Assembly: GCA_000004985.1 (NCBI GenBank)
Contig: GG738857.1
DNA from: Naegleria gruberi
Lineage: Eukaryota
DNA length: 64,000 nt
Reading direction: 5' to 3' (one strand)
Under the pieces are notes generated by a model, which was not told the origin of the DNA, ran no database searches, and saw nothing but the letters and a program-made list of their open reading frames with translations. Of this stretch, positions 4,722-51,290 are shown in pieces (the first letter of the stretch is position 1; every line of letters begins with the position of its first letter). The position numbers were made by a program, and so were the translations under genes.

Positions 4722-7199
4722 ATGAAAATAATTCCTCACCATCATCATTATAAGAAGAATATAATAACACATCTATTCAGTGTAACAAAAATATTCATCA
4801 TATTCATAATATTCACACAAATGTTATTATTAAATCATCTTTTAGTTCATTGTAAAGTAACACTTCAATCATCTGGATCAACATTTTCATCAATGGCTCA
4901 ATTAAATATTAAATCAATGTATACACTTGATATTTCACATTCAAATTCATTAGATTACACAGAGGAAGATTCCATAAGTGGAATTCGTAGAATGTTACTC
5001 ATTGAAGAACAACATCAAAATGATCTAGTTCATGTTGATTTTAATAGTGTTAAAACATTTCCATTCAATCAATTGAAAAGTATTCAAGAAGATTCAGTTT
5101 TTAAAGAGAAATCATATAATAATACAATGTGTATTGATAGTATGTTTGGAGTTTTGGTGTTTGCTATGAATGGTAATTTTGAAAATAACAAAATTTCTCA
5201 ATTATCTCTATCTTTGGAAAGTATTATTGATATTTATTTGGGAAATATTAAATATTGGGATGATTCTAGAATTGTAAATGAAAATCCAAACATAATTTTA
5301 CCATCAAATCAATTAATTTCTGTACTTTCAAGATCTTCAACAAGTGGAACAAGTTTAAATTTGTTAAATTATTTGGCAACACTTTCATCAGATTTTAATC
5401 AAAAGTTTAATTTTCTACTTTCAAATCCAACTTCCAAAATTAGAAATCTCAATTTAACTTCATTAACAACCAATTCAAATTTACTCATTCCAACAAATAA
5501 GGACATGTTAGAATACTTGAAAAATATGAAAGGTTCATTTGGATATACAAGTTTAAATGTTTATTCAAGTTTAACAAGTGAACAAAAAAGTAATGTCATT
5601 CTCATTAATTTAATTATTAATGGAAAGTCAATTGTACCATCTTTGGATAATGCAAAGAATACTATTTCTAAATTTGCTTCTTCTACTTTTAAATCAAGTG
5701 ATATTTATTCACAATCATTGTCAATTTCAAAATCTAATGAAAATCACTATCCACTCATTACATGTATATTTTGGTGTTTTAGACAATATCAATCATTGAG
5801 TGAAGATGGTGTTGCATTACTTCAATTCTTTACAAATTCATACAAGTATTTACAGAGCTCCACTCCAGTTACTACTACTACTACTACTACTTTAGAAACA
5901 ACCAGTACTGCTACGACAACTGATATGATCATGACAACTAGTTCATCAGTTAAGAATGCACTCAGAATGTATTTCAAGAGACAACAATCAACTTCAGAGG
6001 GAAGTTTGAGTGGTGTTATTGCACTTCCATCATGGCTCTCATCCAACAATTTGAAAATTATTGAACAAACTTTAATGTGTGAAAAAAAGTTGTGTTCCAC
6101 CATTCCAAAACCAACCAATGAGTATGTTACTCTATTCCTCCAAATTGCTCTCCCACTCTTAATTGTAATGGGATGTTGTGTTATGATTTTATTGATTGGT
6201 ATTGCAATTTATTGTATTAGAAAGAGAAGATTTAAATCACCTTCTCAACTCAATCAACAATTACTTCAAGATCAAGAAATTGAATATATGGAAGATAGTA
6301 CAACAGTTGCATCTACCTATACATTTACACCAAAACTCTTTGAAAAGGAACAATTGAAGAGTACAATTAGAACTGAAGAATTATCGCTTGATGAACAAAT
6401 TGGAAGTGGTTCATTCTCTGAAGTTTATAGAGGAAGATGGTTAGGAGCAACAGTTGCTGTCAAACGTTTCCTTGTCAATCATATTGAAAGTGATGAAATA
6501 GTTCAAGATTTTATTAAGGAATCTAAACTAATGTCTAAATTAAGACATCCAAATGTTGTTCAATTTATGGGAGTTTGTATTCAAATGCCACATTTATATA
6601 TGGTAACTGAATATTGTGAGAGAGGAAATTTACAACACATTCTCAAAGATAAGAAGATTAAAATTTCACTCAGAAAAACAATTTCAATGGCATTGGATGC
6701 TGCACGTGGAATGTACTATCTTCATACATGTGAAACTCCAATTATTCATAGAGATTTTAAGAGTGCCAATTTACTTGTTGATAAAAATTGGAGTGTTAAA
6801 GTTGGAGATTTTGGAATGTCAAGAATGATTGATTCTCAACAACAAATGACAGTTTGTGGAACAGCTGAAACATGTGCACCTGAAGTTTTAAAAAGAAGTA
6901 TGTATACAGAAAAGGCAGATGTCTATTCATTTGGTATTGTACTTTGGGAAATGTTTACAAGAAGTCAATTATATCCAGGAATGAATTTTTATGAGCTAAG
7001 TTCAAGAGTTGTAAATGAAGGTTTAAGACCAGATACAACAAGTACAAGATTTACTGAAGATCACATTCCAAAAACTATTCAAAATTTAATGACTGATTGT
7101 TGGGATGATGATCCAGATCATAGACCTGATTTTTCAATCATTGTTAAAAAATTAGAAAAGGAATTGGAAATTGAAAATCAAAAGAAGAATAAGGATTAA
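4722..7199 (+). CDS. receptor-like Ser/Thr (TKL-group) protein kinase with PstS-like phosphate-binding ectodomain
   Basis: 825 aa. Hydrophobic N-terminus, then an ectodomain carrying the PstS/phosphate-binding-protein motif IKYWDDSRIVNENPNIILPSNQLISVLSRSSTSGTSLNLLNYLA (compare bacterial PstS ..RxDGSGTTFxFTxYL..). A poly-Thr stalk (VTTTTTTTLETTSTATTT) precedes the TM helix IALPLLIVMGCCVMILLIGIAIYCI-RKRR. The kinase domain has GSGSFSEVY..VAVK, HRDFKSANLL, VGDFGMSR and CAPEV. Confidence 0.7.
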   Translation: MKIIPHHHHYKKNIITHLFSVTKIFIIFIIFTQMLLLNHLLVHCKVTLQSSGSTFSSMAQLNIKSMYTLDISHSNSLDYTEEDSISGIRRMLLIEEQHQNDLVHVDFNSVKTFPFNQLKSIQEDSVFKEKSYNNTMCIDSMFGVLVFAMNGNFENNKISQLSLSLESIIDIYLGNIKYWDDSRIVNENPNIILPSNQLISVLSRSSTSGTSLNLLNYLATLSSDFNQKFNFLLSNPTSKIRNLNLTSLTTNSNLLIPTNKDMLEYLKNMKGSFGYTSLNVYSSLTSEQKSNVILINLIINGKSIVPSLDNAKNTISKFASSTFKSSDIYSQSLSISKSNENHYPLITCIFWCFRQYQSLSEDGVALLQFFTNSYKYLQSSTPVTTTTTTTLETTSTATTTDMIMTTSSSVKNALRMYFKRQQSTSEGSLSGVIALPSWLSSNNLKIIEQTLMCEKKLCSTIPKPTNEYVTLFLQIALPLLIVMGCCVMILLIGIAIYCIRKRRFKSPSQLNQQLLQDQEIEYMEDSTTVASTYTFTPKLFEKEQLKSTIRTEELSLDEQIGSGSFSEVYRGRWLGATVAVKRFLVNHIESDEIVQDFIKESKLMSKLRHPNVVQFMGVCIQMPHLYMVTEYCERGNLQHILKDKKIKISLRKTISMALDAARGMYYLHTCETPIIHRDFKSANLLVDKNWSVKVGDFGMSRMIDSQQQMTVCGTAETCAPEVLKRSMYTEKADVYSFGIVLWEMFTRSQLYPGMNFYELSSRVVNEGLRPDTTSTRFTEDHIPKTIQNLMTDCWDDDPDHRPDFSIIVKKLEKELEIENQKKNKD

Positions 7200-29424: not shown

Positions 29425-31981
29425 ATGGGCAACAAGCAAACAGCAGGAAGTAATTCGCTTTCTGGTTCGATCGGAAGTAGTAGAATAGCTGTTGATGTTG
29501 ATCAACATCATTTGGAAGAATCAATAACATCATTTGTTGCTGATAATTACGATCCGAATGCTGAGGAAGAATATGGCATGGAGGATGTACAAGTCGAAGA
29601 GATGAGATTGGCTGTAGAGGGGAAGATTGCAACAGCTCCATTTGAAATTGGGCAATGGGTTAAAGAAGTTTTAGAATATTCATCACAATATTCGCCAAGT
29701 TGGACTGCTACCAATATTATTGGTGAGTCTAATTCTTTTCCAAAAGTAAGTATTTGCTAGAAGCTAGGGAGATCAACACAAATAGTATGGAGATATGACC
29801 ACGTGTTGGGCTCCACAATCTGCAAGTGGTTCTCATGAACATTTAATTGTTGAATTTGATAATTATGCTCTGATTGGAGGTTTACATATTTATGAAACAT
29901 ATAATTGTGGTGCTATTGTTAAGATTTCATGTCTTCCAGCAGGTAAATCGTATAGTATTGAAGAAGTTGACTCTGGTCAGGTTGATAATGATGGAAATTC
30001 TATTAGAAAGAATCAAGTAACTTCCAAACCTGAAGATTGGATTGTATTATATCAAGGTAATCCACAACAGTCAAGTCTTGCTAAGGAATCAAGAATTTTC
30101 GTTCCTCCAATTAAGAAATATTGTTGTGTTACAAAGATTATCAAAATTGAAATGGACACAACTGACAGTGAATCTTGGAGTGAAATTGATGCTATTAGAA
30201 TGTTTGGTATCATTTGTGATTCGGAAGTTGTTGATGCTATGGCACCAGTTTCAACAGCAGTTCATCATCAAAGTAAGGAATATGTTGAGGATTTAAAGAC
30301 ACTATTTATTAATGAACCATCAACTGATTGTGTCTCACTCAAGCTCCCAATCAAAAAGAAGATGCTTGCATCAACTCCAGAAAACCCATTGTATATTGTA
30401 TCACCAAAATTGTATTATGTTCATGAATTTTTATTGAGATATAGATTCCACAATTCTAGCATACTCGATAAGTACATTGTAAAGAGTGAGGATGAAATTA
30501 CGGACATGTCACCAAGTTCAAATTCATTCTCCATCACAGAGTCAGCAGCAAATAGCATTATTAATTATCTCTATTCTGGATCACTATTCCTTTCTCCATC
30601 CATGTTTAAAGAAAGTGAAGAAAATGATTATACTTCCTCTGAAGATTTCGTTAGAGAAATATTACAAATTTCAAATGCATTTGGAATTGAAACTTTGAAG
30701 GAAGCTTGTACTCAAACTATTGAAATTTCATCATTGATTGATGAAAAATTCAGACAACATGTAACAATATCCATTTTCAACCAACTTGCTTCCACCCTCT
30801 CTGTCAATGATTTATATGAGGATATGAGAGCTGTATTTGAAGAGGCTTGCACAAAAGGTGAAAATTATGATAGAAGAGCTGCTCCTGATATCAAGATCGT
30901 ATTTTCATTGTCAGGTGAGGATGATCCTTTGACTCCATCGAGTAGACCATGTATTTATACTCACTCTTCCATTCTTAAGGCAAGGTGTGCTTATTTTAAG
31001 GTAAGTTTTTGAAAATATGAAGATTAACAAATGTAAAAGACAATGTTCAATTGGGGAAATGTTACTGAGAACCCTTTCAGATTCTCTTCTGATAACATCA
31101 ATGAAATCGATATTCCAGATGTGAAATATGAAATTTTCTTAAAGATGATCAAGTTTATCTATTGTGGAATCCTTGAAAAGGGAGAAATTACACCAGAAGA
31201 AGCCATTCCACTCTACGTTGCACAAAATCAATATTTACTTGATTCTTCTGTGAGTGCATCAGTCATCAAGGAGAATTTATCTGAAACTAATGTAATGGAA
31301 ATCCTAGGATTGGCCGTTCAATTCTCATATCAAGAAATTTCTGAATTCTGTACCAACTATTTAATGAAGAATATTGAACGTGTTTATGTGGATGTTAGAA
31401 ACAGATTCAGAGAGGAGAGAGATAATGGAACATTGAATGATGATCCAATCTATCAACATTTGAAAGAAACTAGTTACATCTGGGATTTGATAATTAATAA
31501 TGATAATTTGCACTATACATCCCAGTGGGCTTATAGATTAATTGGTTTCTCATCAGAATATAACGGTTGGCCAGCAACTAATGTTATCGGCCCTTCGAAC
31601 ACCTACCCAGATTATGGCGATATTAAAACAGCTTGGGCTCCAAAACCATCAAAGAACTCTAAGGAATTTTTGGAATTGGAATTCTATAACCCAACATTCA
31701 TTACTGAAATTCGTGTTTATGAGACATATAACCCAGGTGCTCTTGTTATGGTAACTGCTGTCACAGAATCTCAAAAGGAACAAGATGTAATCTTTGAACA
31801 TGAACCAGTTGCTCACCTCCTTCCTGCACAATCAAGAATCAATGTCATTCCAATATCTGATCCAAAGAATGTCATGCAAAGAAAGTACAAATACTTACGT
31901 CTCGATATAGATACATCGAAGAATTATAGTTGGTATGAAATTGATGCCGTTTTGTTGTGTGGATTCATAGAAAAGAAATAA
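29425..31981 (+). CDS. N-myristoylation-motif protein with two BTB domains flanked by two discoidin/galactose-binding-like domains, 3 exons
   Basis: Exon 1 is 29425..29745 (MGNKQTAGS..), then a GTAAGT 40-nt intron. Exon 2 is 29786..31000, then a GTAAGT 39-nt intron. Exon 3 is 31040..31981. The second BTB spans the intron (..CIYTHSSILKARCAYFK|TMFNWG..IKFIYCG). A ~130-aa domain occurs twice, with the motif W(T/P)ATN(I/V)IG.SN..P.YGD...(C/A)WAP......E(H/F)L..EF.......I.(I/V)YETYN(C/P)GA(I/L)V. Confidence 0.6.
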
Positions 31982-33939: not shown

Positions 33940-36900
33940 ATGAAACACTTGTTGGATTTCGCGTATATGGGGAGGAAATTTTCACACGTTGATCACGATG
34001 GTCAATTAGTAACAAGGGAGTTTCGCAACTGTTTATTTATTCTAATGATTGCTGCTTGGATAACAATGTTGTGGTTGCCAGCACTTGCACATGGACAACA
34101 GTTAACAAAGACATTTTACATTGATTCGCTTCATGTTTCGAATACTAATTCATTCGAATGTGGAAATTCATCAAATCCATGCACTACAGTACAAGATGCT
34201 CTCAATTATTTTGCTTCGGATAGTTACATTCTAATTCAACACCAAATTTCCACCTCCAACACCTCCACACTCACCATTCAATTAACTTTCTTCATGTTAA
34301 ATGATGAACACAATTTTTGTGGTTACAATTTAAACACAACATTTAATGATAATATTGATTATGAATTGAGTTTTATTGGAAATGGGGTTTCTACATTGAC
34401 ATGTACGAAAGGGTATGGAGAGTTGAATTTCATTGAACCTCGTTTGGATATTTCAAAAGTGTTGTTTAGTCAACTTTCGTTGATTGGAGTGGTGTTTAAT
34501 TCATGTTCTTCTATTTCATTGACAGTTGTTAATTGTTTGATAACAGATGGTGGATTTATGACTTATTATCAACTCCAAGAATGTCCCAATTACGTTGCTT
34601 CGAACAGAACTATTCGAAACTTGTACCTTTCTAATATTTCCACATGGAATGGTGTTTTTTTAATTGGAAATGCAAAGAATGGGCTTATAGAGAATATTAG
34701 ATGTGATGGAGTTAGTGCCCTCTCATTCAATAATATGGAATCCATTCAACTTTCGAATGTTCAAATGCCTGGTGATGGATTATTCTCTTCTAACAATGTA
34801 AACTCTATCAGTTTCAAGAATTTCATTTCTACTGGACCTACATTCAACATCCACATTAGAGAATTTAAATCATTCACAATGGAAAGTAGTTCCTTTCAAA
34901 ACTATAAGTATTTTCAGTCAGCTGTCAACATTGACAGAGGAGAAAGTGCCAAAATTATTGATACAACAGTTCAATATTCCAGTCAATGGCTTTCTGCTAA
35001 AACTGTTAAGAAAATTGTCATTTCCAATTTAAGATTTTTGAATAATTATGTATTGGATGTTAGAACTTCCTTTTTAAGTCCAATTTTCATTTATAGTTGT
35101 GATAGTATTAAGATTGAGAATTCTTATTTTGATGGAAATTTTGGAACTAGATCTGGTCCAGTATTTATTGATGATTATTTGAATGTTGAAGTTTCGAATA
35201 ATACATTCATGAATGGTCGATCACTTGCTTCAGGTGGTGCCCTACATTTGGATAATTATCAAGCAGAATCATTATTAGAAAAGGCGACTGTTTTGATTAA
35301 GGATAATTTATTCCTTAATAACACATGTGAAAGAGTTGGTGGAGCTGTTTGCATTAATACTGTGGTCAATTGTGTTGTTACAGGAAACAAATTTATTAGA
35401 AATCAAGCAGTGGTCACTGGAGGTGCTCTTACTATTGCTGAGCATTGTAGAGATTGCCTTATTGAATCATACTTTGAAGAAAACAAGTCAATTGGAAATT
35501 ATTTAGAATTGGATTCGAATATTGTTTTTTCACAACAACTTTGGAATCGAATTATTGGAACTGGAGGTGCTCTTGCCATTTTCACAGAACCAAGATTTTC
35601 ATTTAGGATTTATGGATCTGTATTTGTGAGAAATTATGCAGGAAAAGGAGGAGCAATCCTAATGGGACTCAATTTACCAATTTCTCTCTCACAAAAAACT
35701 CCAACTTTTGTGCAAGATTGTAAATTTGAGGGAAATTTTGCAACCAAAACTGGAAATGATATTTATGCTGTGAATTTTCAAGCTCCTTTATCATATGTTA
35801 GAACTTTTATTAATCAAACAGAGGGAAATGAATATAGTTTCTCATCTAGTCCCGCCATTTTTAGAATTGTAAAGGTTAGCACTAACAAAGTTTATCCTGG
35901 TCAACCGATTGATATTGCATTCTATGTGGAGAATATATTTGGAAGGGAGATTGATATTGCATCTCAATATGTGGTTATTGATCAATTTCCTAACATGCTT
36001 CCTTTTTTGAATTATTCAAATGTTGACAGAAAGTCACTTGTCTTGACTCCTTATTCATTAACTACTGAAATGCCAATTGTTTCTCAATTTAATTTCTCAG
36101 TTTATTCAGAAGATCAAAAATTTTCAGCTAGTTTCCAATTCGAAATGTTTCCATGCCCAAAAAAGTTTATTCTACAAAAGAATGTTGCCTATTCTAATCT
36201 GGTCTATCAATGTGTGAGTGATAATAGTTTAGATCTTTCACTAGTTCTTGGACTGACTATTCCAATTGGAATTTTATTCTTAATTGTAGGAGCAATTTTG
36301 GGAGGATTGTCAGTTTATGCTATTCGATTCACACTTACACAAATTTCAATTCTCAAGACGAAACAAAGAGCTGAGAAGAGTCTTGAACAGAGAATTATAG
36401 ACAAGAAGATCATTTTCAATTCAGATCCTTCATCTGGTACCACTCACTATTCGAAATATAGTACAAATAGTGACCTTTCGGTTCCATTAATCGAAAATGG
36501 TAGCGCAGAAAAGAGTATGGCCACTCCATCCTTTGTCATTCCAATCGAAAGCATTGATATTATCAAAAAGTTAGCAGAAGGTGGATTAGGCATAATTTAT
36601 CTTGGTAAATTATGGAAGAAAATTGATGTTGCCATCAAATTACTGAAATCAAACGATCAAGATGAAGAATTTGAACAGGAAGTTTCCCTTCTAAGTTCAT
36701 TAAGACATGATAATATTGTTACATTTTATGGTATTTGTATGTCAGATGATGCCAAGTATATGATTACAGAGTTTGTTGAAAAGGGATCATTGGATAAAGC
36801 TCTGTACAAGTCAAGGATTGGAGAGGTGTCAATGTCAATTCAAAAGAAAATGTCAATATTGATAGCGACAGCAAGAGGAATTGAATATCTTCATGGATTA

Positions 36901-37557
36901 ACACCAACAGTTGTTCATCGTGATTTGGTATGTAATATTAGTTTCACAATTTCGCAATTAACATTGTTTTTTCTCTATTGGAAGAAACCTGGTAATATCC
37001 TATTGGAAGAAAAGAATCAAGCAAAGATTTGTGATTTTGGTATTTCAAGAACTGTGTCCAATGCAACTGTCCAACAAACAGCCATGACCACTAATTTAGG
37101 TACCTTAATCTATTGTCCAAATGAAGTAATTGAAGGACCTACTTTGACTAATAAGGCAAGCAAACAAACTGCCACCAAAATTGATATCTTTAGTTTCTCC
37201 GTAATTATGTGGGAAGTTTTCTTTGAAATTATTCCTTATTCACCATCGGTAGGAAAATTAACTCCACTATTTCAGTTATCAAAAGAGGAAAATGAAATGT
37301 TGAGTATGAATTCGTTTAATATTCCTTATTTTGTGGTGAAGGGAATGAGACCATTGATTCCATTCAGAACAGATGAGCAGATTAGAGAGTGGATTGAAAG
37401 ATACATGCCTGAACAGATTCACAATTCGAATATTGTTCAATTTGTAAATCGATTCTTTGCATTGGTTCAACAAGGTTGGTCAACTGATGCAACCAAGAGA
37501 CCAAATATTACAACTGTATTACAAGAACTTGAAGAACTGAATAATCTGATCAGATAG
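33940..37557 (+). CDS. receptor-like Ser/Thr (TKL) kinase with Pmp/parallel-beta-helix repeat ectodomain; in-frame 57-nt intron in catalytic loop
   Basis: Signal/TM N-terminus. The ectodomain carries repeated FxxN and GGA[ILV] motifs (NTFMNGRSLASGGALHL, NNTCERVGGAVCI, GNKFIRNQAVVTGGALTI, GTGGALAIF, GKGGAILM). TM helix LVLGLTIPIGILFLIVGAILGGLSVYAI. Kinase motifs VAIK and ICDFGISR are present. HRDL|KPGNILL is restored only after removing 36928..36984 (GTATGT..ttggaAG, 57 nt, no stop), so the ORF track reads through the intron. Confidence 0.7.
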   Translation: MKHLLDFAYMGRKFSHVDHDGQLVTREFRNCLFILMIAAWITMLWLPALAHGQQLTKTFYIDSLHVSNTNSFECGNSSNPCTTVQDALNYFASDSYILIQHQISTSNTSTLTIQLTFFMLNDEHNFCGYNLNTTFNDNIDYELSFIGNGVSTLTCTKGYGELNFIEPRLDISKVLFSQLSLIGVVFNSCSSISLTVVNCLITDGGFMTYYQLQECPNYVASNRTIRNLYLSNISTWNGVFLIGNAKNGLIENIRCDGVSALSFNNMESIQLSNVQMPGDGLFSSNNVNSISFKNFISTGPTFNIHIREFKSFTMESSSFQNYKYFQSAVNIDRGESAKIIDTTVQYSSQWLSAKTVKKIVISNLRFLNNYVLDVRTSFLSPIFIYSCDSIKIENSYFDGNFGTRSGPVFIDDYLNVEVSNNTFMNGRSLASGGALHLDNYQAESLLEKATVLIKDNLFLNNTCERVGGAVCINTVVNCVVTGNKFIRNQAVVTGGALTIAEHCRDCLIESYFEENKSIGNYLELDSNIVFSQQLWNRIIGTGGALAIFTEPRFSFRIYGSVFVRNYAGKGGAILMGLNLPISLSQKTPTFVQDCKFEGNFATKTGNDIYAVNFQAPLSYVRTFINQTEGNEYSFSSSPAIFRIVKVSTNKVYPGQPIDIAFYVENIFGREIDIASQYVVIDQFPNMLPFLNYSNVDRKSLVLTPYSLTTEMPIVSQFNFSVYSEDQKFSASFQFEMFPCPKKFILQKNVAYSNLVYQCVSDNSLDLSLVLGLTIPIGILFLIVGAILGGLSVYAIRFTLTQISILKTKQRAEKSLEQRIIDKKIIFNSDPSSGTTHYSKYSTNSDLSVPLIENGSAEKSMATPSFVIPIESIDIIKKLAEGGLGIIYLGKLWKKIDVAIKLLKSNDQDEEFEQEVSLLSSLRHDNIVTFYGICMSDDAKYMITEFVEKGSLDKALYKSRIGEVSMSIQKKMSILIATARGIEYLHGLTPTVVHRDLVCNISFTISQLTLFFLYWKKPGNILLEEKNQAKICDFGISRTVSNATVQQTAMTTNLGTLIYCPNEVIEGPTLTNKASKQTATKIDIFSFSVIMWEVFFEIIPYSPSVGKLTPLFQLSKEENEMLSMNSFNIPYFVVKGMRPLIPFRTDEQIREWIERYMPEQIHNSNIVQFVNRFFALVQQGWSTDATKRPNITTVLQELEELNNLIR

Positions 37558-37758: not shown

Positions 37759-38142
37759 ATGAACAAAATCGTTTCTGTCTGCATTCTTGCTCTCCTTGTC
37801 TTATCTGCTTGCTTGGTCAACTGTCAATACAGCAACAATTATGGTACCAATTATGGTTCATATGGAGGAGCTGGTTCTAACTATGGTGTCACTGGTGGAA
37901 ATTACAATCAATATGCTCAAAATACTCAATCCTATTTGAATCAAATTAATGCAGTCAACTCAAGTCCTTACTCAAGTTATGGATCTTCATATGTTGGCCC
38001 AACAAATTATGGTACTAACTATGGAAGTGCTTACTCAATGCCATTCTATGGTGGTTATGGAGGTTATGGTGTTCCTTATTATGGTGGTTATGGTGGTTAT
38101 GGTGGATATGGTGGTTGTGTTGGTGGTGTTAGATGGTGTTAA
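37759..38142 (+). CDS. small secreted Gly/Tyr/Asn-rich repeat protein
   Basis: 127 aa. Signal peptide MNKIVSVCILALLVLSACLVNC. Repeated NYG/YGGYGG units. Confidence 0.5.
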   Translation: MNKIVSVCILALLVLSACLVNCQYSNNYGTNYGSYGGAGSNYGVTGGNYNQYAQNTQSYLNQINAVNSSPYSSYGSSYVGPTNYGTNYGSAYSMPFYGGYGGYGVPYYGGYGGYGGYGGCVGGVRWC

Positions 38143-41079: not shown

Positions 41080-43293
41080 ATGAGTCTCCCAAATAACAAC
41101 ACTATTAGTAGCAATTGGCAATTACCTCTTGCTTGGAAGCAACAATTTGCTCTTCCATTCGTTCAAGCTTTGGAAGCACAAGAAAAGGAAAGTCCAGACA
41201 GTGATATTTTGAATAATCCATCACTCACCGAACAACAAAAACAACAACAAATTTCTGCTCGTAACATTGATAGAAAGCAACAAAAGAGACTGAAAGCAAT
41301 CTTTAATAGATTTGCTTCATCGAAGGATACTTTTGGTGAACCAATAATGACACCAGAAGATTTTGTCAAATCAATCACACAAAGAAACATTCCTTTCACT
41401 CAAGAAGAAGTGCAACAACAACAAAAGCAAACAATGACCTCAAGTAACTTGGATTTATTGTTTAAAGCAGCAGATTCTGGTATGTCTGGTAAAATTACCT
41501 TCCCAGAATACTTGTTCCTCTTCAAAATGCTCACAACACCTGAAAGTGAATTCCATCTCTTATTTAAAATGTTTGATTTGAACAAGGATGGTGCTATCAG
41601 TAAGGATGAATTCAAGAAGGCAATGAAATTGAGTAATCAAAGAGGTATTGACTTTGATTTCGATTGTGACTTAATGCACAGATTCTTTGGTCGTGATGGT
41701 ACTGGTTCTCTGAGTTTTAATCAATTCTCACAATTCATGAAATTAATGAATGAAGAACTCAGAAGACAAGAATTCCAAAAACTTGATGCCACAGGAAAGG
41801 GTTTCATTTCCGGTTCTCAATTTGCCACTCTCATTACTCAATATTCAATTAATCTTCCACAAAGAGTTAAGGAAAATATTGGTAAAATCCCAGAATCAAC
41901 AAAGATTTCATATGCCGAATTTGATGCTTACAATAGAGTTATTAGTAATTTGAACTCTATTGCTCAATCCATTAGAGGTTTGGGTAACAGAGAAGGTGGT
42001 ATGATCACCAAGGAATCATTTTCCACTGCTGCTAGACGTGTGACAGGTATTGTCCTCAGCCCAATGGAAATTGATATTATTTTCAACATGTTTGCCACTA
42101 AGCCAGAAGAAGGAGTTTTATATAAGCAAGATTATGAAGAATTTATTCGTGTTATGGATGAAAACAATAATAGAAGACAACACATTTTGGATAGTTGGAG
42201 TAGAGATGAAGTGACACCAGATGGTATGACAGAAATGACTTTCGGAGAAAGATTTTTGAACGGAGTTGTTAAAATTGCCACAAAGACCTTGTATGGTGGT
42301 ATTTCAGGAGCTATTGGTGCTTTTGCTGTCTTCCCAATTGATATGGTCAAGACACGTATGCAAAATCAAAGAAAGCTTCTTGGTAATGCTGGAACTCCTG
42401 CTCCAAATCAAATCATTTATAAGAACAGTATTGATTGTTTTAGACAAATCTATCACTATGAAGGTATTAAGGGTTTCTATAGAGGTTTAATTCCACAATT
42501 GATTGGTGTCTCACCAGAAAAGGCCATCAAGTTGGCAACCAATGATACATTGCGTGATTTGTTCGGAAAGGAAGGTGATGAAATCTATTTCCCATTGGAA
42601 GTTTTGGCTGGTTGTGGTGCTGGTGCTTCTCAAGTTGTTTTCACTAACCCAATTGAAATTGTCAAGATTAGATTGCAAGTTCAAGGAGAATTGGCCAGAA
42701 CTGAAGGAATTGCTCCAAAAGGTGCCATTCAAATCTGTAAAGAATTAGGTTTAAAGGGTTTATATAAGGGTGCTTCTGCCTGTTTTGCTCGTGATATCCC
42801 ATTCTCTGGTATTTACTTCCCACTTTATGCCTTCTTGAAGGAAGAATTCAGAAAGGAAGGTGAAACTGCAACAAGTGGTGGCAATTTGTTTATTGCTGGT
42901 TCAATTGCTGGTGGTGTTTCTGCTGCTTCAGTAACTCCTTTCGATGTCATTAAGACCAGATTACAAGTTGAAGCTAGAGCTGGTCAAACTCAATATAGAG
43001 GTATTGCTCACTGTGCCAAGACAATCATGAAGGAAGAAGGTCCAACAGCTTTCTTCAAGGGTACTGTCCCAAGAGTTTTAAGAAGCAGTCCACAATTTGG
43101 TGTGACATTGCTTGCTTATGAAGCTCTCCATCGTTTTGTCAATGAAAAACATTCTAAACAAGAAGAAAAGGAACATCATAAGAGTTTGCCAGCTTCTGTT
43201 CCTGTTGACGAACAAGACTTGGAAAGTTTGAGACAACTCTTCTACATGAGAACACAAGGTATTTCTTCAATTCTTGGAAATGAAAAGAAGTAA
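41080..43293 (+). CDS. Ca2+-binding mitochondrial aspartate/glutamate carrier (Aralar/Citrin-type, SLC25A12/13 family)
   Basis: 737 aa. The N-terminal regulatory region has EF-hand loops (DLNKDGAISKDEF, DGTGSLSFNQF). Three mitochondrial-carrier repeats carry Px[DE]xx[KR] signatures PIDMVKTRMQ, PIEIVKIRLQ and PFDVIKTRLQ. Confidence 0.9.
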   Translation: MSLPNNNTISSNWQLPLAWKQQFALPFVQALEAQEKESPDSDILNNPSLTEQQKQQQISARNIDRKQQKRLKAIFNRFASSKDTFGEPIMTPEDFVKSITQRNIPFTQEEVQQQQKQTMTSSNLDLLFKAADSGMSGKITFPEYLFLFKMLTTPESEFHLLFKMFDLNKDGAISKDEFKKAMKLSNQRGIDFDFDCDLMHRFFGRDGTGSLSFNQFSQFMKLMNEELRRQEFQKLDATGKGFISGSQFATLITQYSINLPQRVKENIGKIPESTKISYAEFDAYNRVISNLNSIAQSIRGLGNREGGMITKESFSTAARRVTGIVLSPMEIDIIFNMFATKPEEGVLYKQDYEEFIRVMDENNNRRQHILDSWSRDEVTPDGMTEMTFGERFLNGVVKIATKTLYGGISGAIGAFAVFPIDMVKTRMQNQRKLLGNAGTPAPNQIIYKNSIDCFRQIYHYEGIKGFYRGLIPQLIGVSPEKAIKLATNDTLRDLFGKEGDEIYFPLEVLAGCGAGASQVVFTNPIEIVKIRLQVQGELARTEGIAPKGAIQICKELGLKGLYKGASACFARDIPFSGIYFPLYAFLKEEFRKEGETATSGGNLFIAGSIAGGVSAASVTPFDVIKTRLQVEARAGQTQYRGIAHCAKTIMKEEGPTAFFKGTVPRVLRSSPQFGVTLLAYEALHRFVNEKHSKQEEKEHHKSLPASVPVDEQDLESLRQLFYMRTQGISSILGNEKK

Positions 43294-43363: not shown

Positions 43364-44940
43364 TTACTTTTTTAAGAGAAATGCTGGTCTGGAAGGTTGT
43401 GAAAATCTTTCAAGACGATCCTTTAGTGAAGGTCTGGCATAATCTTGACATCTCTTCTTGAAGTCTTCCAATATCTTATTGGAAATCTCAATAACTTGAT
43501 TTCTATCACTCTCCTCAGTAATATCGTTTAAAATGCTGACTTGATTTTGTTGGAAATTCTCCACGAGTTGAGCAACAGCTTGATCGAAATCATCCATAGT
43601 TTTAAATTGCTTTGGACATGGATTTGATCTTCTGTGAATATCATAATAACTATTTTCCAAATTATAGTACAAACAAAGGACATTCTTATATGTTACAGAT
43701 ACTTGTTGATTATTAATTGGTCCATTCAATAATTCTTTTCCAATTGCAATTATCAATTCCTTCAAGGTTAATTGTTCAATCCAATTATGAGGAATTCCTT
43801 CAACTCCATAATAACATCCCATCAATTGACCAGCAATAGCTGCAACTGTATCAGAATCATCTCCCAAACGAGTTACCTTTTTAATTCCTTCACCAAACGA
43901 AGAAGTGTGGTAAAAATTCCACAATGCACTCTCTAAAGCTTTTGCAGAATATCCCGAGTTGGAAATTTCATCTTCATTCTTTGATTTAAAGTTGGTAATG
44001 ACATCAAGAACTTCAGCTCTCAATGGATACATTTCCCAATAATTAGAAGGCAATCCTTTTGGTACAAATGGAGTGGACGATAACAATTCTTCCTTTGATG
44101 CATTTTGTAAACAGCCAATCAACAAAGCAGCATAATATCTATTAGTATCAATTGCAATTGGTGAAGGATGTGTAGTCAAGGATGAAACACCACTCTCAGT
44201 AATTACTCTGTGAAGTAATCTTTCTTCAACAAATAGTTCAGATAATTCAATATTTGAAAATCTCTTCTTCCAATTCAAATATATACCATAAAAGTACAAT
44301 GGAATAGTTGCCAATCTCATTAAGGCACCATTTCCAGAAGCATTATCAGTCCATTCAGAAGCACTGCAAAAAGCAGCCTTATTCTTTTCATTTTTCAACA
44401 AGTGAACTATAGTTGTCTTTCCAATATCAAAACAATGTCCACTAGCTGACAAATGTCCATTATTATACCAATTCAAGAATTTGTCTTGCATATCTCTGCC
44501 ATCAATTGCACTATGAGGTATCATATCATTCACCCACATTGCATTATCCTTAGCATTATCCCACGGATAATTAACAATCAATTCATTTCCATTCGAAAGT
44601 ATTTCCTTGAATGTTCCCAATAAACTTTCGCCCTGAATAAGAGACATGGTTGTATCATCAGTAAACATGCCTTTCATTAATCTGAATTTTCCTTCTCCCA
44701 CCAAATCATCCCTTTTTTATTACAATTAAATATATTTAATATTTGATGATTTAAATATTATTTGATTGGAAGAATTTGATCGTCATGAATGAACAAATTT
44801 AATGTTCAGAATATTACAAAGGTACACACATACTTTAAATCGGAATCTTTAATTCCATGTCTAGGAATAAATTCAAATGTTGTTCCGTAAGCATCACCAG
44901 TGGCCATGCCTAATAAACATCCAAGAAATTTTGATTCCAT
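43364..44940 (-). CDS. ADP-ribosylglycohydrolase family protein, 2 exons
   Basis: Exon 1 is 44940..44834 (MESKFLGCLLGMATGDAYGTTFEFIPRHGIKDSDLK) with a GTATGT donor. A 122-nt intron. Exon 2 is 44711..43364 (DDLVGEG..FTDDTTMSL..GNGALMR..GDDSDTVAAIAGQLMGCYYG). A ~150-aa extension beyond the ARH fold follows. The tracked ORF start at 44704 is TTG. Confidence 0.7.
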
Positions 44941-48504: not shown

Positions 48505-51290
48505 TTAGTTTATCAATGATTGTTTCTTTTGGAGAAATGCAAGCTCAGAAATATTCAATAAATAACTCCTGTAAATAAATTTCCCATAATATTGCTCACA
48601 ACCACTCAGACCAAGGATGCCAAAATTTGGGGGGAACTTGTATTTACCATCCTTAAGATTTGCACTAAGAGGTTTGTTTGTAATAATTATAGCAAGAGAA
48701 GTATTTGGGGTTCCACCTATCAGTTCAAGTTTTGGTTCATTGAAATGATTTTGATAAATTTTCTTAACAGCAGTCATTGTTAAACTGTTTGAATCTGATG
48801 TGAAACTCTTGTCTTGCCATAAGATAGTCCAATTGTTATTATCAATATTGCAATCAGCAAATCTATGAAAAAATGAAGAGGTAAAATTATTTTGAACCAA
48901 AGTGTTCTGAGGAATCTCATATTTTGATCTAGTTACATCTGTTAAAATAGTAACAACTTTGTTTGGAAATGTGTTTAAATTAATAATCCTATACCCCATT
49001 TCTTTTTGAAACATAATTCCCTTAAATCTATCCTTGATATGCATTTGAGATACTCCTAAAATAATAAAGCAATAATTTTTTACAATTTCAAAATGTGCAT
49101 TGAAGATTTTAAAATCTCTGGAACAGGTGGTTTTTTTTTTAAATGCTGCTTTTTCAAGTGATTTAAATAATTTTTCAAAGGACGTCTTAATCTTAGGATC
49201 ATCAAATATGATAATATTTAAACAACTCAAGATCATTGGAAGAGACATTGTTATCAATCCATTAGCAATTCTTATATATCCATTATCTTCTAATTGTCTT
49301 AATTTCCTTGTATCAATTGTATCTATAATTTCAGAATTAACAGGTGTTTCTGTTAAAGTGTGGGCCAAAATTAATTTAGCTATTTCATTTTCAAAAACAA
49401 AGTTCACACCATAACTAGAAAAATTGTTCTTGGCAATGTTGTAGGCATTTTGTATTCTATCTTCAACGTTCAATGTTAATTTTGTGTCCTTCAAATTATC
49501 CAAAAACCATTCAATCATTCTAGGATGCTTGTTAATAAAAGTAAGAGCTTTCCATAACGGTGCTGCATATTTTAAAGAAGGAACATTTCTGCAAACAATT
49601 TCTAATTCGTCATCATCAGAAAATTGGTAAGGAGTAAAATAATTACTATGGAAACCTGATTCAAAAACTCTCCTTTCAAAGAAAGCCATATCTAATCCAG
49701 CAAATAATGGAAAAAGTTTAACAGAAGATGGTTTTTGGTTGTTGAGTATTACAAAATTACATATCATAGTGATAATTTCTGAAAAATTCATGTGTGGAAA
49801 CTCCTTAACTTTGGTATATTCATCAATAGCCAAATAAACAGCAACAGGTGAATCTTTTGGTTTGTTGTTAACTTCCTTCCAGTGCTGTACTATTGTCAAT
49901 ATTAACTCCTCAAAGGTAGGATTGATCTTGGCTAATTCAGATGCAATAGATGTAATGGTGTTTGTATCAAAACTTGGGAAATTTAAATATGAAAACAATA
50001 TTCTATATAAAAATCCCATTTTTAAATCATCACCAGCTCCTAAACTCATACCATTACCAAAGGAAATTCTTATTTCCAATGAATTATCTTTGTAATTTTT
50101 TTCTTGGGTGGTTAATTTGAAAATTTCTTGTAATGTCCTTGATTTTCCTAAAATATAATAAAATAATAAAATGATTATGCTAAAGTATAACACTACATAC
50201 CTGTTCCAGAAGCGTAGGCAAGGTAAGGAATAAAAATATTTTGTTTGTCTGTTTCGGTTTCTAATTTATGAAACGTTTCAGAAATTCCCTTGACAAGTTC
50301 ATCATTATATTTGAATGGCATGTCGATAATTGATCGAACTAATCTATAAGCATTTAGCCTGGCTCCATGTTTTGCAATAAAACTTGCCAATAAACTACGA
50401 TTTGAAAAATCAACATTGTCACAAGTAATTATGTACTGTTGTTTCCATCTTTCAATCACTTTCTCATTGTTGTCAGATATTTGAATGCCACTTAGTTTTA
50501 GGGATAACAAGTAGGAACTTTCGTTTTTAGTTAAATATTCTAAACTTTCGCTAATTGCTTGACTGATTTTCTCAGTTTGCCACAAATGAAAGAGTCTTGT
50601 TGTGAGTAGTTGGTATACCCAATTAACAACGGCCTCTAAAGTGGTTTGGGAAATGCTTTTGTAATCGTTGTTGTTTCTTACTTGTGTAATAGCATAATGC
50701 TTGTCCTTATCTTGGATATAAGTAACAATATTACTAAGAGCAATACCATCAAACCCAACATCATACAATTGCTTTACCTTTTCAACAATCAAACCAGCTC
50801 CACCTTTTCTTTCATCAGTGCACAACAAGGAGCAAACTTGTTCTTTTGTCCATTGTTTAAATTTTGTAGTATCCAATATTTGTTTGTTTTCAGTAGTAAC
50901 CAACGTTACTGGTTCAGAATAAATATTCTCGGAAAGAAAAGTGGTAGTAGAATAATTTTTGCAAGAATTTGTGACGGCAAAAACATGCTTCGTTCTATAA
51001 TGATTGTTTTTGTTTTTTGTTGGATGAATTTGATTTTGCATCTTTAATCTGGTTGAGGTTGAATAATTCTTTGTATTACTAGTATCATTATGCAAATAGA
51101 TGGTGCAACTAATACCGACAGAGGTTTGCCTCAACTTTTGTTGATTAATTGCGGTTTTGGGCAATAGTAAAAGCTTTCGAGGGAGACAGGAGGTGGATAT
51201 TTTTTTTTTGACTCGGAAAAAATTCAACAACTTAGGATGATTATTGTTGATTTTCAGAGTGGTTTCTCTTGGTGAGTACTTTTCCATCAT
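48505..51290 (-). CDS. SAM-domain + P-loop NTPase-like large protein, 2 exons
   Basis: Exon 1 is 51290..50201 with a GTATGT donor. A 53-nt intron ends ttttAG at 50148. Exon 2 is 50147..48505. The splice creates ..PYLAYASGTG|KSRTLQE.., a Walker-A-like GxGKS spanning the junction. A SAM-like segment is WTKEQVCSLLCTDERKGGAGLIVEKVKQLYDVGFDGIALSNI. The two tracked ORFs are contiguous in different frames. Confidence 0.5.

What the first reader, a model, noticed from the sequence alone, without database searches (positions are those of the whole stretch)
33940..37557. Receptor kinase with chlamydial-Pmp-like repeat ectodomain; catalytic loop interrupted by an in-frame 57-nt intron; degenerate APE motif
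The ectodomain has at least six FxxN ... GGA[ILV] repeat pairs, typical of polymorphic-membrane-protein/parallel-beta-helix adhesin-like domains. The kinase reads HRDL-[VCNISFTISQLTLFFLYWK]-KPGNILL. The bracketed 19 codons are a GTATGT..AG intron with no stop, so naive ORF calling inserts them into the catalytic loop. The activation segment ends ..GTLIYCPNEV rather than ..APE. It may be an atypical or weakly active kinase.
Basis: partly seen in the sequence, partly recalled or inferred. Interest (0 to 1): 0.55.

Follow-up and report, generated by a model that had tools for sequence, protein, structure and literature searches.

The report
Naegleria beta-helix receptor kinase gene
This is an ordinary but previously uncatalogued gene of the amoeba Naegleria gruberi for a cell-surface receptor kinase with a beta-helix sensor outside the cell, and the odd 19-codon insert in its active site is a normal short intron that happens to stay in frame.

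Summary
The ORF 33940..37557 (+) is real. The window is Naegleria gruberi DNA.

- **Gene product.** With 36928..36984 removed, the gene encodes a 1186-aa type-I membrane protein. It has a signal/anchor segment, a right-handed parallel beta-helix ectodomain with Pmp-type FxxN/GGA[ILV] repeats, an Ig-like stalk, one TM helix and a TKL-group Ser/Thr kinase.
- **Intron.** The 57-nt GTATGT..AG segment is almost certainly an intron. Removing it restores HRDLKPGN and raises the kinase Pfam score by 18-25 bits. The closest homologue (N. lovaniensis C9374_000528) has a 64-nt GTAAGT..AG intron at the identical HRDL|KPGN position. There is no cDNA evidence.
- **Not a chlamydial Pmp.** No autotransporter or Pmp middle-domain family appeared among the Pfam hits.
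- **APE motif.** It reads PNE, but the Glu and all catalytic residues are intact, so "weakly active" is not supported.
- **Family.** Homologues exist only as uncharacterised proteins in Naegleria species. This gene itself has no public protein model in the collections searched.

It is a new member of a known kind and of modest interest.

The parts
33940..37557 (+). Whole gene: two exons and one intron. The spliced product is 1186 aa; the stop is TAG at 37555..37557.
   Evidence: Uninterrupted 1205-codon ORF. Spliced translation.
33940..36927 (+). Exon 1, from ATG to ...CAT CGT GAT TTG (HRDL).
   Evidence: The exon end coincides with the exon end in N. lovaniensis L002 at 6361.
36928..36984 (+). 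Phase-0 spliceosomal intron of 57 nt: GTATGT...TTAAC...T-rich tract...AAG. It is in frame and has no stop.
36985..37557 (+). Exon 2: AAA CCT GGT AAT (KPGN...) to the stop.
34027..34092 (+). N-terminal hydrophobic segment (aa 30-51, ...LFILMIAAWITMLWLPALA|HGQQ). It is a signal peptide or signal anchor. The true start could be M36 or M43.
   Evidence: Kyte-Doolittle scan. Met positions.
34267..35769 (+). Right-handed parallel beta-helix body of the ectodomain (approximately aa 110-610).
35110..35796 (+). Seven Pmp-type repeat units (aa 391-619), with five GGA[ILV] motifs and FxxN motifs.
   Evidence: PF02415 scores 29 bits on this region alone. The F/N/GGA columns are invariant in the Naegleria family alignment A1.
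35839..36219 (+). Membrane-proximal Ig-like beta-sandwich (aa 634-760).
   Evidence: Strands at model residues 583-709. Local Foldseek matches to SbsC domains, CopC, Rib, invasin and the NF-kB p65 Ig-like (IPT-type) domain.
36235..36327 (+). Single transmembrane helix (aa 766-796).
   Evidence: Hydropathy maximum of 2.68.
36355..36417 (+). Juxtamembrane motif KTKQRAEKSLEQRIIDKKIIF. The KxRAEK core is shared with the N. lovaniensis and N. gruberi homologues and the I(I/L)DK(K/R)(I/V)IF part also with N. fowleri.
   Evidence: Alignment. Coordinates.
36556..37524 (+). Protein kinase domain (aa 873-1176 of the spliced protein), TKL group. The span includes the intron.
   Evidence: PF07714 scores 148 bits and PF00069 147.7 bits as a single stretch when spliced. 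The best solved relatives are CTR1, TNNI3K, Pto, TAK1, RIPK2 and BRI1.
36916..36996 (+). Catalytic loop HRDL|KPGN (aa 993-1000), split by the intron.
   Evidence: The loop is contiguous in P0052, P0075, P0199 and CTR1.
37099..37125 (+). End of the activation segment, GTLIYCPNE. The APE position reads PNE with the Glu retained.

Best explanation
This is a two-exon Naegleria gruberi gene for a single-pass (type I) receptor Ser/Thr kinase of the TKL group.

The extracellular part is a long right-handed parallel beta-helix. Its C-terminal rungs carry Pmp-type FxxN/GGA[ILV] repeats. An Ig-like stalk follows, then one TM helix, a family-specific juxtamembrane motif and a complete RD-type kinase domain.

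The 57 nt at 36928..36984 are an ordinary short phase-0 spliceosomal intron. It happens to be a multiple of three and stop-free. Splicing joins HRDL to KPGN and makes the catalytic loop.

Inferred mechanism: the beta-helix binds an extracellular ligand, most plausibly a glycan or surface polymer of prey or substrate, as such folds usually do. Ligand-driven clustering then activates the kinase through activation-loop phosphorylation.

- Shown: gene structure, domain architecture, fold class, family relationships and intact catalytic residues.
- Inferred: splicing (comparative evidence only), surface localisation, ligand type and activity.
For: Organism:
- A neighbouring ORF is 100% identical to an N. 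gruberi protein.

Architecture:
-.

Intron:
- It has GTATGT..AG ends, a TTAAC branch-like site, a T-rich 3' tract and low GC.
- Other introns in the window have the same 5' sites and are 39-122 nt long.
- Removing it raises PF07714 from 129.5 to 148 bits and PF00069 from 123 to 147.7 bits, and merges two stretches into one.
- Homologues and CTR1 align straight across HRDLKxxN.
- N. lovaniensis C9374_000528 is 50% identical in the cytoplasmic part. It has a 64-nt GTAAGT..AG phase-0 intron at exactly HRDL|KPGN.
- That genome was annotated with BRAKER1 using RNA-seq, and its median intron length is 80 bp (PMC6125883).

Ectodomain:
- Colinear homology over about 700 aa to N. lovaniensis (E 2e-40 and 8e-38), N. 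fowleri and N. gruberi proteins.
- Those homologues reach PF02415 scores of 19-48 bits. The window's own repeat region scores 29 bits.

Kinase:
- All catalytic residues are present.
Against: - No transcript evidence was obtainable for splicing or expression. The spliced-junction and genomic-junction scans of the metagenome collection were both empty and so uninformative.
- No identical or >=50%-identical protein exists in the collections searched. The gene has therefore not been validated by any annotation.
- The structure model rests on a 5-sequence alignment. It has low-confidence loops at model residues 469-489 and 562-587.
- The ligand and the activation mechanism are pure inference.
- The first Gly of the glycine-rich loop is Ala (AEGGLG) and APE is PNE. 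Reduced activity cannot be excluded.
Confidence: 0.8

Rival explanations
1. The 57 nt are retained, always or in a regulated fraction of transcripts. That would give a receptor with 19 hydrophobic residues inside the catalytic loop: a kinase-dead decoy or pseudokinase isoform.
For: The segment is in frame and stop-free, so a retained message would escape premature termination. APE is degenerate and the first G-loop Gly is Ala.
Against: About 4% of introns of this size and composition are in frame and stop-free by chance. The intron position is shared with N. lovaniensis, where the intron does carry in-frame stops, so coding potential is not conserved. The insert has no counterpart in any homologue. 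All catalytic residues are kept, which argues for selection on an active spliced form.
Confidence: 0.07
2. The beta-helix ectodomain is an enzyme (a polysaccharide hydrolase, lyase or epimerase tethered to the membrane) rather than a ligand-sensing domain.
Against: Identity to these is 8-16%, with no Pfam glycosidase or lyase hit. The sequence-level relatives are Pmp-type repeat proteins, which are adhesin-like passenger domains. Fusion to a TM helix and a kinase is the signature of a receptor. No catalytic residues were examined.
Confidence: 0.1
3. The locus is a decaying or unexpressed paralogue (pseudogene), not a working receptor.
For: There is no public protein model. The ectodomain is only 20-27% identical to relatives. 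The APE motif is divergent.
Against: A 3.6-kb frame stays open in a 32%-GC genome where stops are frequent. The repeat columns and ectodomain cysteines invariant in the family, the kinase catalytic residues, and the splice sites are all kept.
Confidence: 0.05
4. The Pmp-like region was acquired recently by horizontal transfer from a chlamydial or other bacterial symbiont of amoebae.
For: The repeat type is named after Chlamydia. Several of the best repeat-only hits are metagenomic 'predicted outer membrane repeat proteins'.
Against: The repeat hits are only 28-31% identical and of mixed origin, including a green alga. The gene has host-like GC and a spliceosomal intron. The whole ectodomain is colinear in three Naegleria species, so any transfer would predate the genus. 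No autotransporter domain is present.
Confidence: 0.05

Closest known systems
Uncharacterised Naegleria beta-helix receptor kinases: N. lovaniensis C9374_000528 (XP_044552356.1), N. fowleri FDP41_008148 (XP_044558157.1) and N. gruberi NAEGRDRAFT_74710 (XP_002670288.1). N. lovaniensis C9374_013524 covers the ectodomain only.
   Same: The ectodomain is colinear, with the same Pmp-type repeat columns. All have a single TM helix, a shared juxtamembrane motif and a TKL kinase with HRDLKPGN. The intron at HRDL|KPGN is shared with C9374_000528.
   Different: Identity is only 20-27% in the ectodomain and 39-50% in the cytoplasmic part. The relatives read APE or SPE where this protein reads PNE. The N. 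fowleri gene lacks the HRDL|K intron and has one after KPGNILL. Synteny with the N. lovaniensis locus is not kept.
Chlamydial polymorphic membrane proteins (Pmp; Pfam PF02415 repeat)
   Same: Both have repeated GGA[ILV] and FxxN motifs on a predicted parallel beta-helix at the cell surface.
   Different: Pmps are bacterial type V autotransporters with a C-terminal beta-barrel. This is a eukaryotic type-I membrane protein with a cytoplasmic kinase. It has few repeats and is sub-threshold for PF02415 when scanned whole.
Dictyostelium TKL-group receptor kinases (GDT and DRK families; Goldberg et al. 2006, PMC1420674)
   Same: The architecture matches: signal peptide, lineage-specific ectodomain, one TM helix and a TKL kinase in an amoeboid protist. 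rk3 has a TIG (Ig-like) domain.
   Different: They come from a different eukaryotic supergroup. Homology of the ectodomains was not tested here. No Dictyostelium protein appeared among the ectodomain hits whose source was looked up.
Plant RLK/Pelle receptor kinases and other TKL kinases (CTR1, BRI1, FERONIA, TAK1, RIPK2)
   Same: They are the closest solved kinase domains, at E of 1e-25 to 5e-30. The general logic of a single-pass receptor Ser/Thr kinase is the same.
   Different: Kinase identity is about 25-34%. The ectodomains are unrelated (LRR, malectin, WAK). No evidence of orthology was found.
Protostelium nocturnum EP01117_P005145 (Pmp/Beta_helix + TM + kinase)
   Same: It has the same three-part architecture and clear PF02415/PF13229 hits.
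   Different: Its kinase has a tyrosine-kinase-like catalytic loop (HRDLSARN) and is only 28% identical. This is probably an independent fusion.

Membership tests
Eukaryotic protein kinase superfamily, TKL group | Pfam kinase models above their gathering score over one continuous domain | tested here: met
   PF07714 scores 148 bits and PF00069 147.7 bits as a single stretch after intron removal.
Eukaryotic protein kinase superfamily, TKL group | Catalytic residues: beta3 Lys, alphaC Glu, HRD Asp, catalytic-loop Asn, DFG Asp, APE Glu and subdomain-XI Arg | tested here: met
   VAIK at 897-900, EFEQEV, HRDLKPGN at 993-1000, DFG at 1013-1015, PNE with the Glu at 1043, and KRPN. The first G-loop Gly is Ala.
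Eukaryotic protein kinase superfamily, TKL group | Closest relatives are TKL-group kinases | tested here: met
   The best solved relatives are CTR1, TNNI3K, Pto, TAK1, RIPK2, BRI1, SYMRK and FERONIA. Formal group HMMs (kinase.com) are not available here.
Eukaryotic protein kinase superfamily, TKL group | Phosphotransfer activity | not testable with these tools
   This needs an in-vitro kinase assay.
Chlamydial Pmp family (type V autotransporter adhesins) | Multiple GGA[ILV] and FxxN motifs | tested here: met
   Five GGA[ILV] motifs against 0.02 expected, and four strict FxxN...GGA pairs.
Chlamydial Pmp family (type V autotransporter adhesins) | PF02415 Chlam_PMP above the gathering score (20.6 bits) | tested here: inconclusive
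   No hit on the full protein at E<=1. The whole ectodomain scores 16.9 bits and the 226-aa repeat region alone scores 29 bits, E 9e-7.
Chlamydial Pmp family (type V autotransporter adhesins) | C-terminal autotransporter beta-barrel and Pmp middle domain | tested here: not met
   Pfam returns only kinase-type families downstream of the repeats. A TM helix and a kinase take that place.
Right-handed parallel beta-helix (pectin-lyase-like) fold | Three-dimensional similarity to solved beta-helix proteins | tested here: met
Naegleria beta-helix receptor kinase family (uncharacterised) | Colinear ectodomain homology plus TM plus a related TKL kinase | tested here: met
   phmmer gives E 8e-38 over query residues 15-710 to P0052. 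The window kinase domain against P0052 gives E 4e-103.
Naegleria beta-helix receptor kinase family (uncharacterised) | Shared intron position in the catalytic loop | tested here: met
   It is identical to N. lovaniensis (L002 6362..6425). It is not shared by the N. fowleri paralogue. The N. gruberi paralogue could not be examined.
Dictyostelium GDT/DRK receptor kinases | Homologous 'gdt' or 'drk' extracellular domain | not tested
   Only the architectural parallel is taken from PMC1420674.

The most novel reading that the evidence does not exclude
Naegleria carries its own family of beta-helix (Pmp-repeat) receptor Ser/Thr kinases. The family was assembled independently of plant, animal and amoebozoan receptor kinases, and it senses prey or substrate glycans.

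In this member, the stop-free in-frame intron in the catalytic loop would allow regulated intron retention. That would produce a kinase-dead decoy receptor.
Probability: 0.05. Interest if true: 0.6.

Novelty: new member of a known kind. Interest (0 to 1): 0.3.

Why it matters
- **Annotation.** An in-frame, stop-free intron makes a naive ORF call insert 19 residues into a kinase active site. The gene appears to be missing from the public N. gruberi protein set, so kinome and receptor counts for this model amoeba are slightly incomplete.
- **Biology.** The gene adds a member to a small, unstudied, apparently Naegleria-restricted family of beta-helix receptor kinases. That family could be an entry point to how a bacterivorous (and, in N. 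fowleri, pathogenic) amoeba senses surfaces.
- **Limits.** Nothing here overturns current understanding. Protist receptor kinases with lineage-specific ectodomains are well documented (PMC10463195, PMC1420674).

Tried and rejected
- **Exact-protein look-ups.** The unspliced ORF is not on record.
- **Word-index homology searches.** The full protein and the ectodomain returned only generic kinases and one weak Pmp protein. They missed the Naegleria homologues that the exhaustive phmmer search found.
- **cDNA-like evidence.** I scanned the JGI metagenome collection for the spliced junction and, as a control, the genomic junction. Both gave 0 hits, so the result is uninformative.
- **Public N. gruberi annotation of this locus.** I tried to reach it through the neighbouring Aralar model and through the paralogue. 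Neither is in the gene-position index.
- **AFDB fold search.** The library was unavailable.
- **GTATGT as a diagnostic.** It is not one. Seven other sense-strand GTA[AT]GT hexamers lie in long ORFs or at their ends (three of those at ORF ends are intron starts), including one in a conserved codon run of this gene at 36737, although the hexamer is about 2-fold depleted.
- **Further hidden in-frame introns.** The only window-specific insert (aa about 525-540) has no GT..AG ends.
- **HGT from Chlamydiae.** I found no support.
- **Literature.** I found no paper on Pmp-repeat or beta-helix receptor kinases in Naegleria. The N. gruberi genome paper is not held.
Full report
**What is there**

Window 33940..37557 (+) is one uninterrupted frame of 1205 codons. 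The window is 32% GC and gene-dense, with long ORFs and short introns.

A neighbouring ORF (41080..43293, an Aralar-type carrier) is 100% identical to an NCBI 'predicted protein, partial [Naegleria gruberi]'. The same ORF is 83% identical to N. fowleri, 72% to Willaertia magna and 57% to Acrasis kona. The DNA is therefore N. gruberi.

The naive translation does read HRDL-VCNISFTISQLTLFFLYWK-KPGNILL. The 19 codons are 36928..36984. They are 57 nt, begin GTATGT, end AAG and carry no in-frame stop. Their GC is 26%, against 35.5% in the 200 nt on either side.

The activation segment ends GTLIYCPNEV.

The repeat count was somewhat optimistic.
- There are five GGA[ILV] motifs (aa 432, 467, 494, 542, 570).
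- Four have a strict FxxN upstream and one has FMNG.
- Two flanking units are degenerate, giving seven units between aa 391 and 619.
- Shuffled ectodomains give 0.02 GGA[ILV] on average and never more than two in 20,000 trials, so the repeat is real.

**Is the 57-nt segment an intron?**

No transcript data could be reached. Five independent lines agree that it is.

1. Precise removal recreates the universal catalytic loop HRDLKPGN. It raises the Pfam scores from 129.5 to 148 bits (PF07714) and from 123 to 147.7 bits (PF00069), and turns two matched stretches into one.
2. Solved TKL kinases such as CTR1, and all family members, align straight across this point with no gap.
3. The ends and interior look like the other introns visible in the window. 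Those start with GTAAGT or GTATGT, are 39-122 nt long and are A/T-rich. The candidate also has a TTAAC branch-like site about 27 nt from the AG, followed by a T-rich tract.
4. The closest homologue is N. lovaniensis C9374_000528, which is 50% identical over the cytoplasmic part. Mapping its protein onto its genomic locus shows a 64-nt GTAAGT...CATAG intron in phase 0 between the same L and K codons (L002 6362..6425). That intron contains in-frame stops. The genome was annotated with BRAKER1 using RNA-seq and has a median intron length of 80 bp (PMC6125883).
5. The 19 inserted residues have no counterpart in any relative.

An N. fowleri paralogue lacks this intron and has one seven codons later. 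The N. lovaniensis gene has both.

Being in frame and stop-free is not special. Simulation with the local intron composition gives about 13% stop-free for 57 nt, or about 4% once the length constraint is included. GTATGT alone is not diagnostic either, because seven other sense-strand GTA[AT]GT hexamers (besides the candidate and the one at 36737) occur in long ORFs here or at their ends.

**The protein**

The spliced product is 1186 aa.
- A hydrophobic segment at aa 30-51 is followed by a 711-aa ectodomain with eleven N-x-S/T sequons.
- A strong TM helix lies at aa 766-796.
- The kinase domain spans aa 873-1176.

An exhaustive phmmer search of the ectodomain against 1.84 billion representatives found four colinear relatives. 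All are from Naegleria.
- N. lovaniensis C9374_013524, E 2e-40.
- N. lovaniensis C9374_000528, E 8e-38.
- An N. fowleri protein (FDP41_008148).
- N. gruberi NAEGRDRAFT_74710.

The search also found about 280 repeat-only matches confined to aa about 380-580 of the protein. Those repeat-only partners that I scanned are strong PF02415 (Chlam_PMP) proteins at 98-133 bits. The Naegleria relatives score 19-48 bits.

The window protein itself gives no PF02415 hit when scanned whole. The full ectodomain scores 16.9 bits, below the 20.6 cutoff. The 226-aa repeat region alone scores 29 bits, E 9e-7.

In the family alignment the F, N, A and GGA columns of the repeats are invariant.

An AlphaFold model built on that alignment has mean pLDDT 76.8 and pTM 0.72 and is all-beta.
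- The last about 125 ectodomain residues match Ig-like sandwiches locally.

The 'Pmp-like / parallel beta-helix' reading holds as a description of fold and repeat type. Membership of the chlamydial Pmp family does not hold, because the autotransporter barrel is replaced by a TM helix and a kinase.

**The kinase**

The best solved relatives are TKL-group kinases: CTR1, TNNI3K, Pto, TAK1, RIPK2, BRI1, SYMRK and FERONIA, at E of 5e-30 to 1e-25.

VAIK, the alphaC Glu, HRD, the catalytic Asn, DFG, the subdomain-IX Asp and the subdomain-XI Arg are all present.
- The first glycine of the G-loop is Ala.
- The APE position reads PNE, so the Glu is kept. By established kinase structure, that Glu pairs with the subdomain-XI Arg.
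- Relatives read APE (N. lovaniensis, N. fowleri) or SPE (the N. gruberi paralogue).
- HRDLKPGN and the GT of the P+1 loop indicate Ser/Thr specificity.

I see no sequence basis for calling it inactive. Reduced activity cannot be excluded without an assay.

**Context**

- The flanking genes are unrelated (an unannotated multi-pass membrane protein upstream and a small Gly/Tyr-rich secreted protein downstream), and nothing suggests an operon-like unit.
- A second, unrelated receptor kinase with a PBP-like ectodomain lies at 4722..7199.
- Among the top 150 ectodomain relatives (154 sequences scanned in all), only the Naegleria proteins carry a clear kinase domain (one further hit, P0159, is marginal). 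It has a tyrosine-kinase-like loop (HRDLSARN) and 28% kinase identity, so it is probably an independent fusion.
- The best repeat-only hits are of mixed origin: metagenomic 'outer membrane repeat proteins' and a green alga. This gives no case for recent transfer from Chlamydiae.

**Public record**

Neither the unspliced ORF nor anything at least 50% identical to the ectodomain is present in the collections searched. Those collections do hold N. gruberi proteins. The gene seems to lack a public protein model, but I could not inspect the N. gruberi annotation directly.

Literature searches found no description of this family. Receptor kinases with lineage-specific ectodomains are well known in protists. 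About 40% of protist TMK non-kinase domains lack a Pfam annotation (PMC10463195). Dictyostelium has nine TKL receptor kinases (PMC1420674).

**Verdict**

The intron call is very probably right, and the 'weak kinase' suggestion is not supported.

It is a new, divergent member of a small, uncharacterised, Naegleria-restricted family of beta-helix receptor Ser/Thr kinases. Mechanistically, I commit to a surface sensor whose beta-helix binds an extracellular, probably glycan, ligand and signals through an active RD-type TKL kinase. The architecture is shown; the ligand and the activation mechanism are inferred.

Interest is modest. The finding has value for annotation and as a lead into amoebal surface sensing, but it is not surprising to a specialist.

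Noticed in passing
window 4722..7199 (+): A second single-pass receptor kinase. Its ectodomain hits PF12849 PBP_like_2 (phosphate-binding-protein-like, 33 bits). It has one TM segment and a canonical TKL kinase (PF07714 225 bits; HRDFKSAN, DFG, APE). It is only 28% identical to the finding's kinase, and no exact protein is on record.
   Followed up: partly
window 41080..43293 (+); L001: This Aralar-type EF-hand mitochondrial carrier ORF is 737 aa here, but the public N. gruberi model is a 628-aa 'partial' protein that is 100% identical. The full 737-aa ORF occurs on an ENA metagenome contig (ERZ929261, PRJEB11402), so that sample contains N. gruberi DNA.
   Followed up: partly
window 33940..37557: No identical or >=50%-identical protein to this gene exists in the 15-billion-protein collection, although other N. 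gruberi proteins are there. The gene appears to be unannotated in the public N. gruberi protein set.
   Followed up: partly
window 31001..31039 (+); 50200..50148 (-); 44833..44712 (-): Three further short introns (39, 53 and 122 nt; GTAAGT or GTATGT ... AG) join adjacent ORFs. One pair is 29795..31012 and 31043..31981, of which the second hits Pfam BTB. The others are the pair 50193..51290/48505..50193 and the gene ending at 43364.
   Followed up: partly
window, all ORFs >=250 aa: Sense-strand GTA[AT]GT hexamers are about 2-fold depleted in long ORFs (10 observed against 20 +/- 4.4 in codon shuffles). This is consistent with selection against cryptic 5' splice sites.
   Followed up: partly
window 37759..38142 (+): Immediately downstream is a small (127 aa) secreted-looking protein rich in Gly, Tyr and Asn repeats. 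It has no Pfam hit.
   Followed up: no
L002 6426..6447: In N. lovaniensis C9374_000528 the seven codons KPGNILL form a 22-nt micro-exon between two introns: one at HRDL|K and one after KPGNILL. The window gene keeps only the first intron and the N. fowleri paralogue keeps only the second.
   Followed up: partly
P0007 (Protostelium nocturnum transcriptome): An amoebozoan protein has Pmp/Beta_helix repeats, a TM helix and a tyrosine-kinase-like domain (HRDLSARN). The same architecture appears to have been assembled independently.
   Followed up: partly
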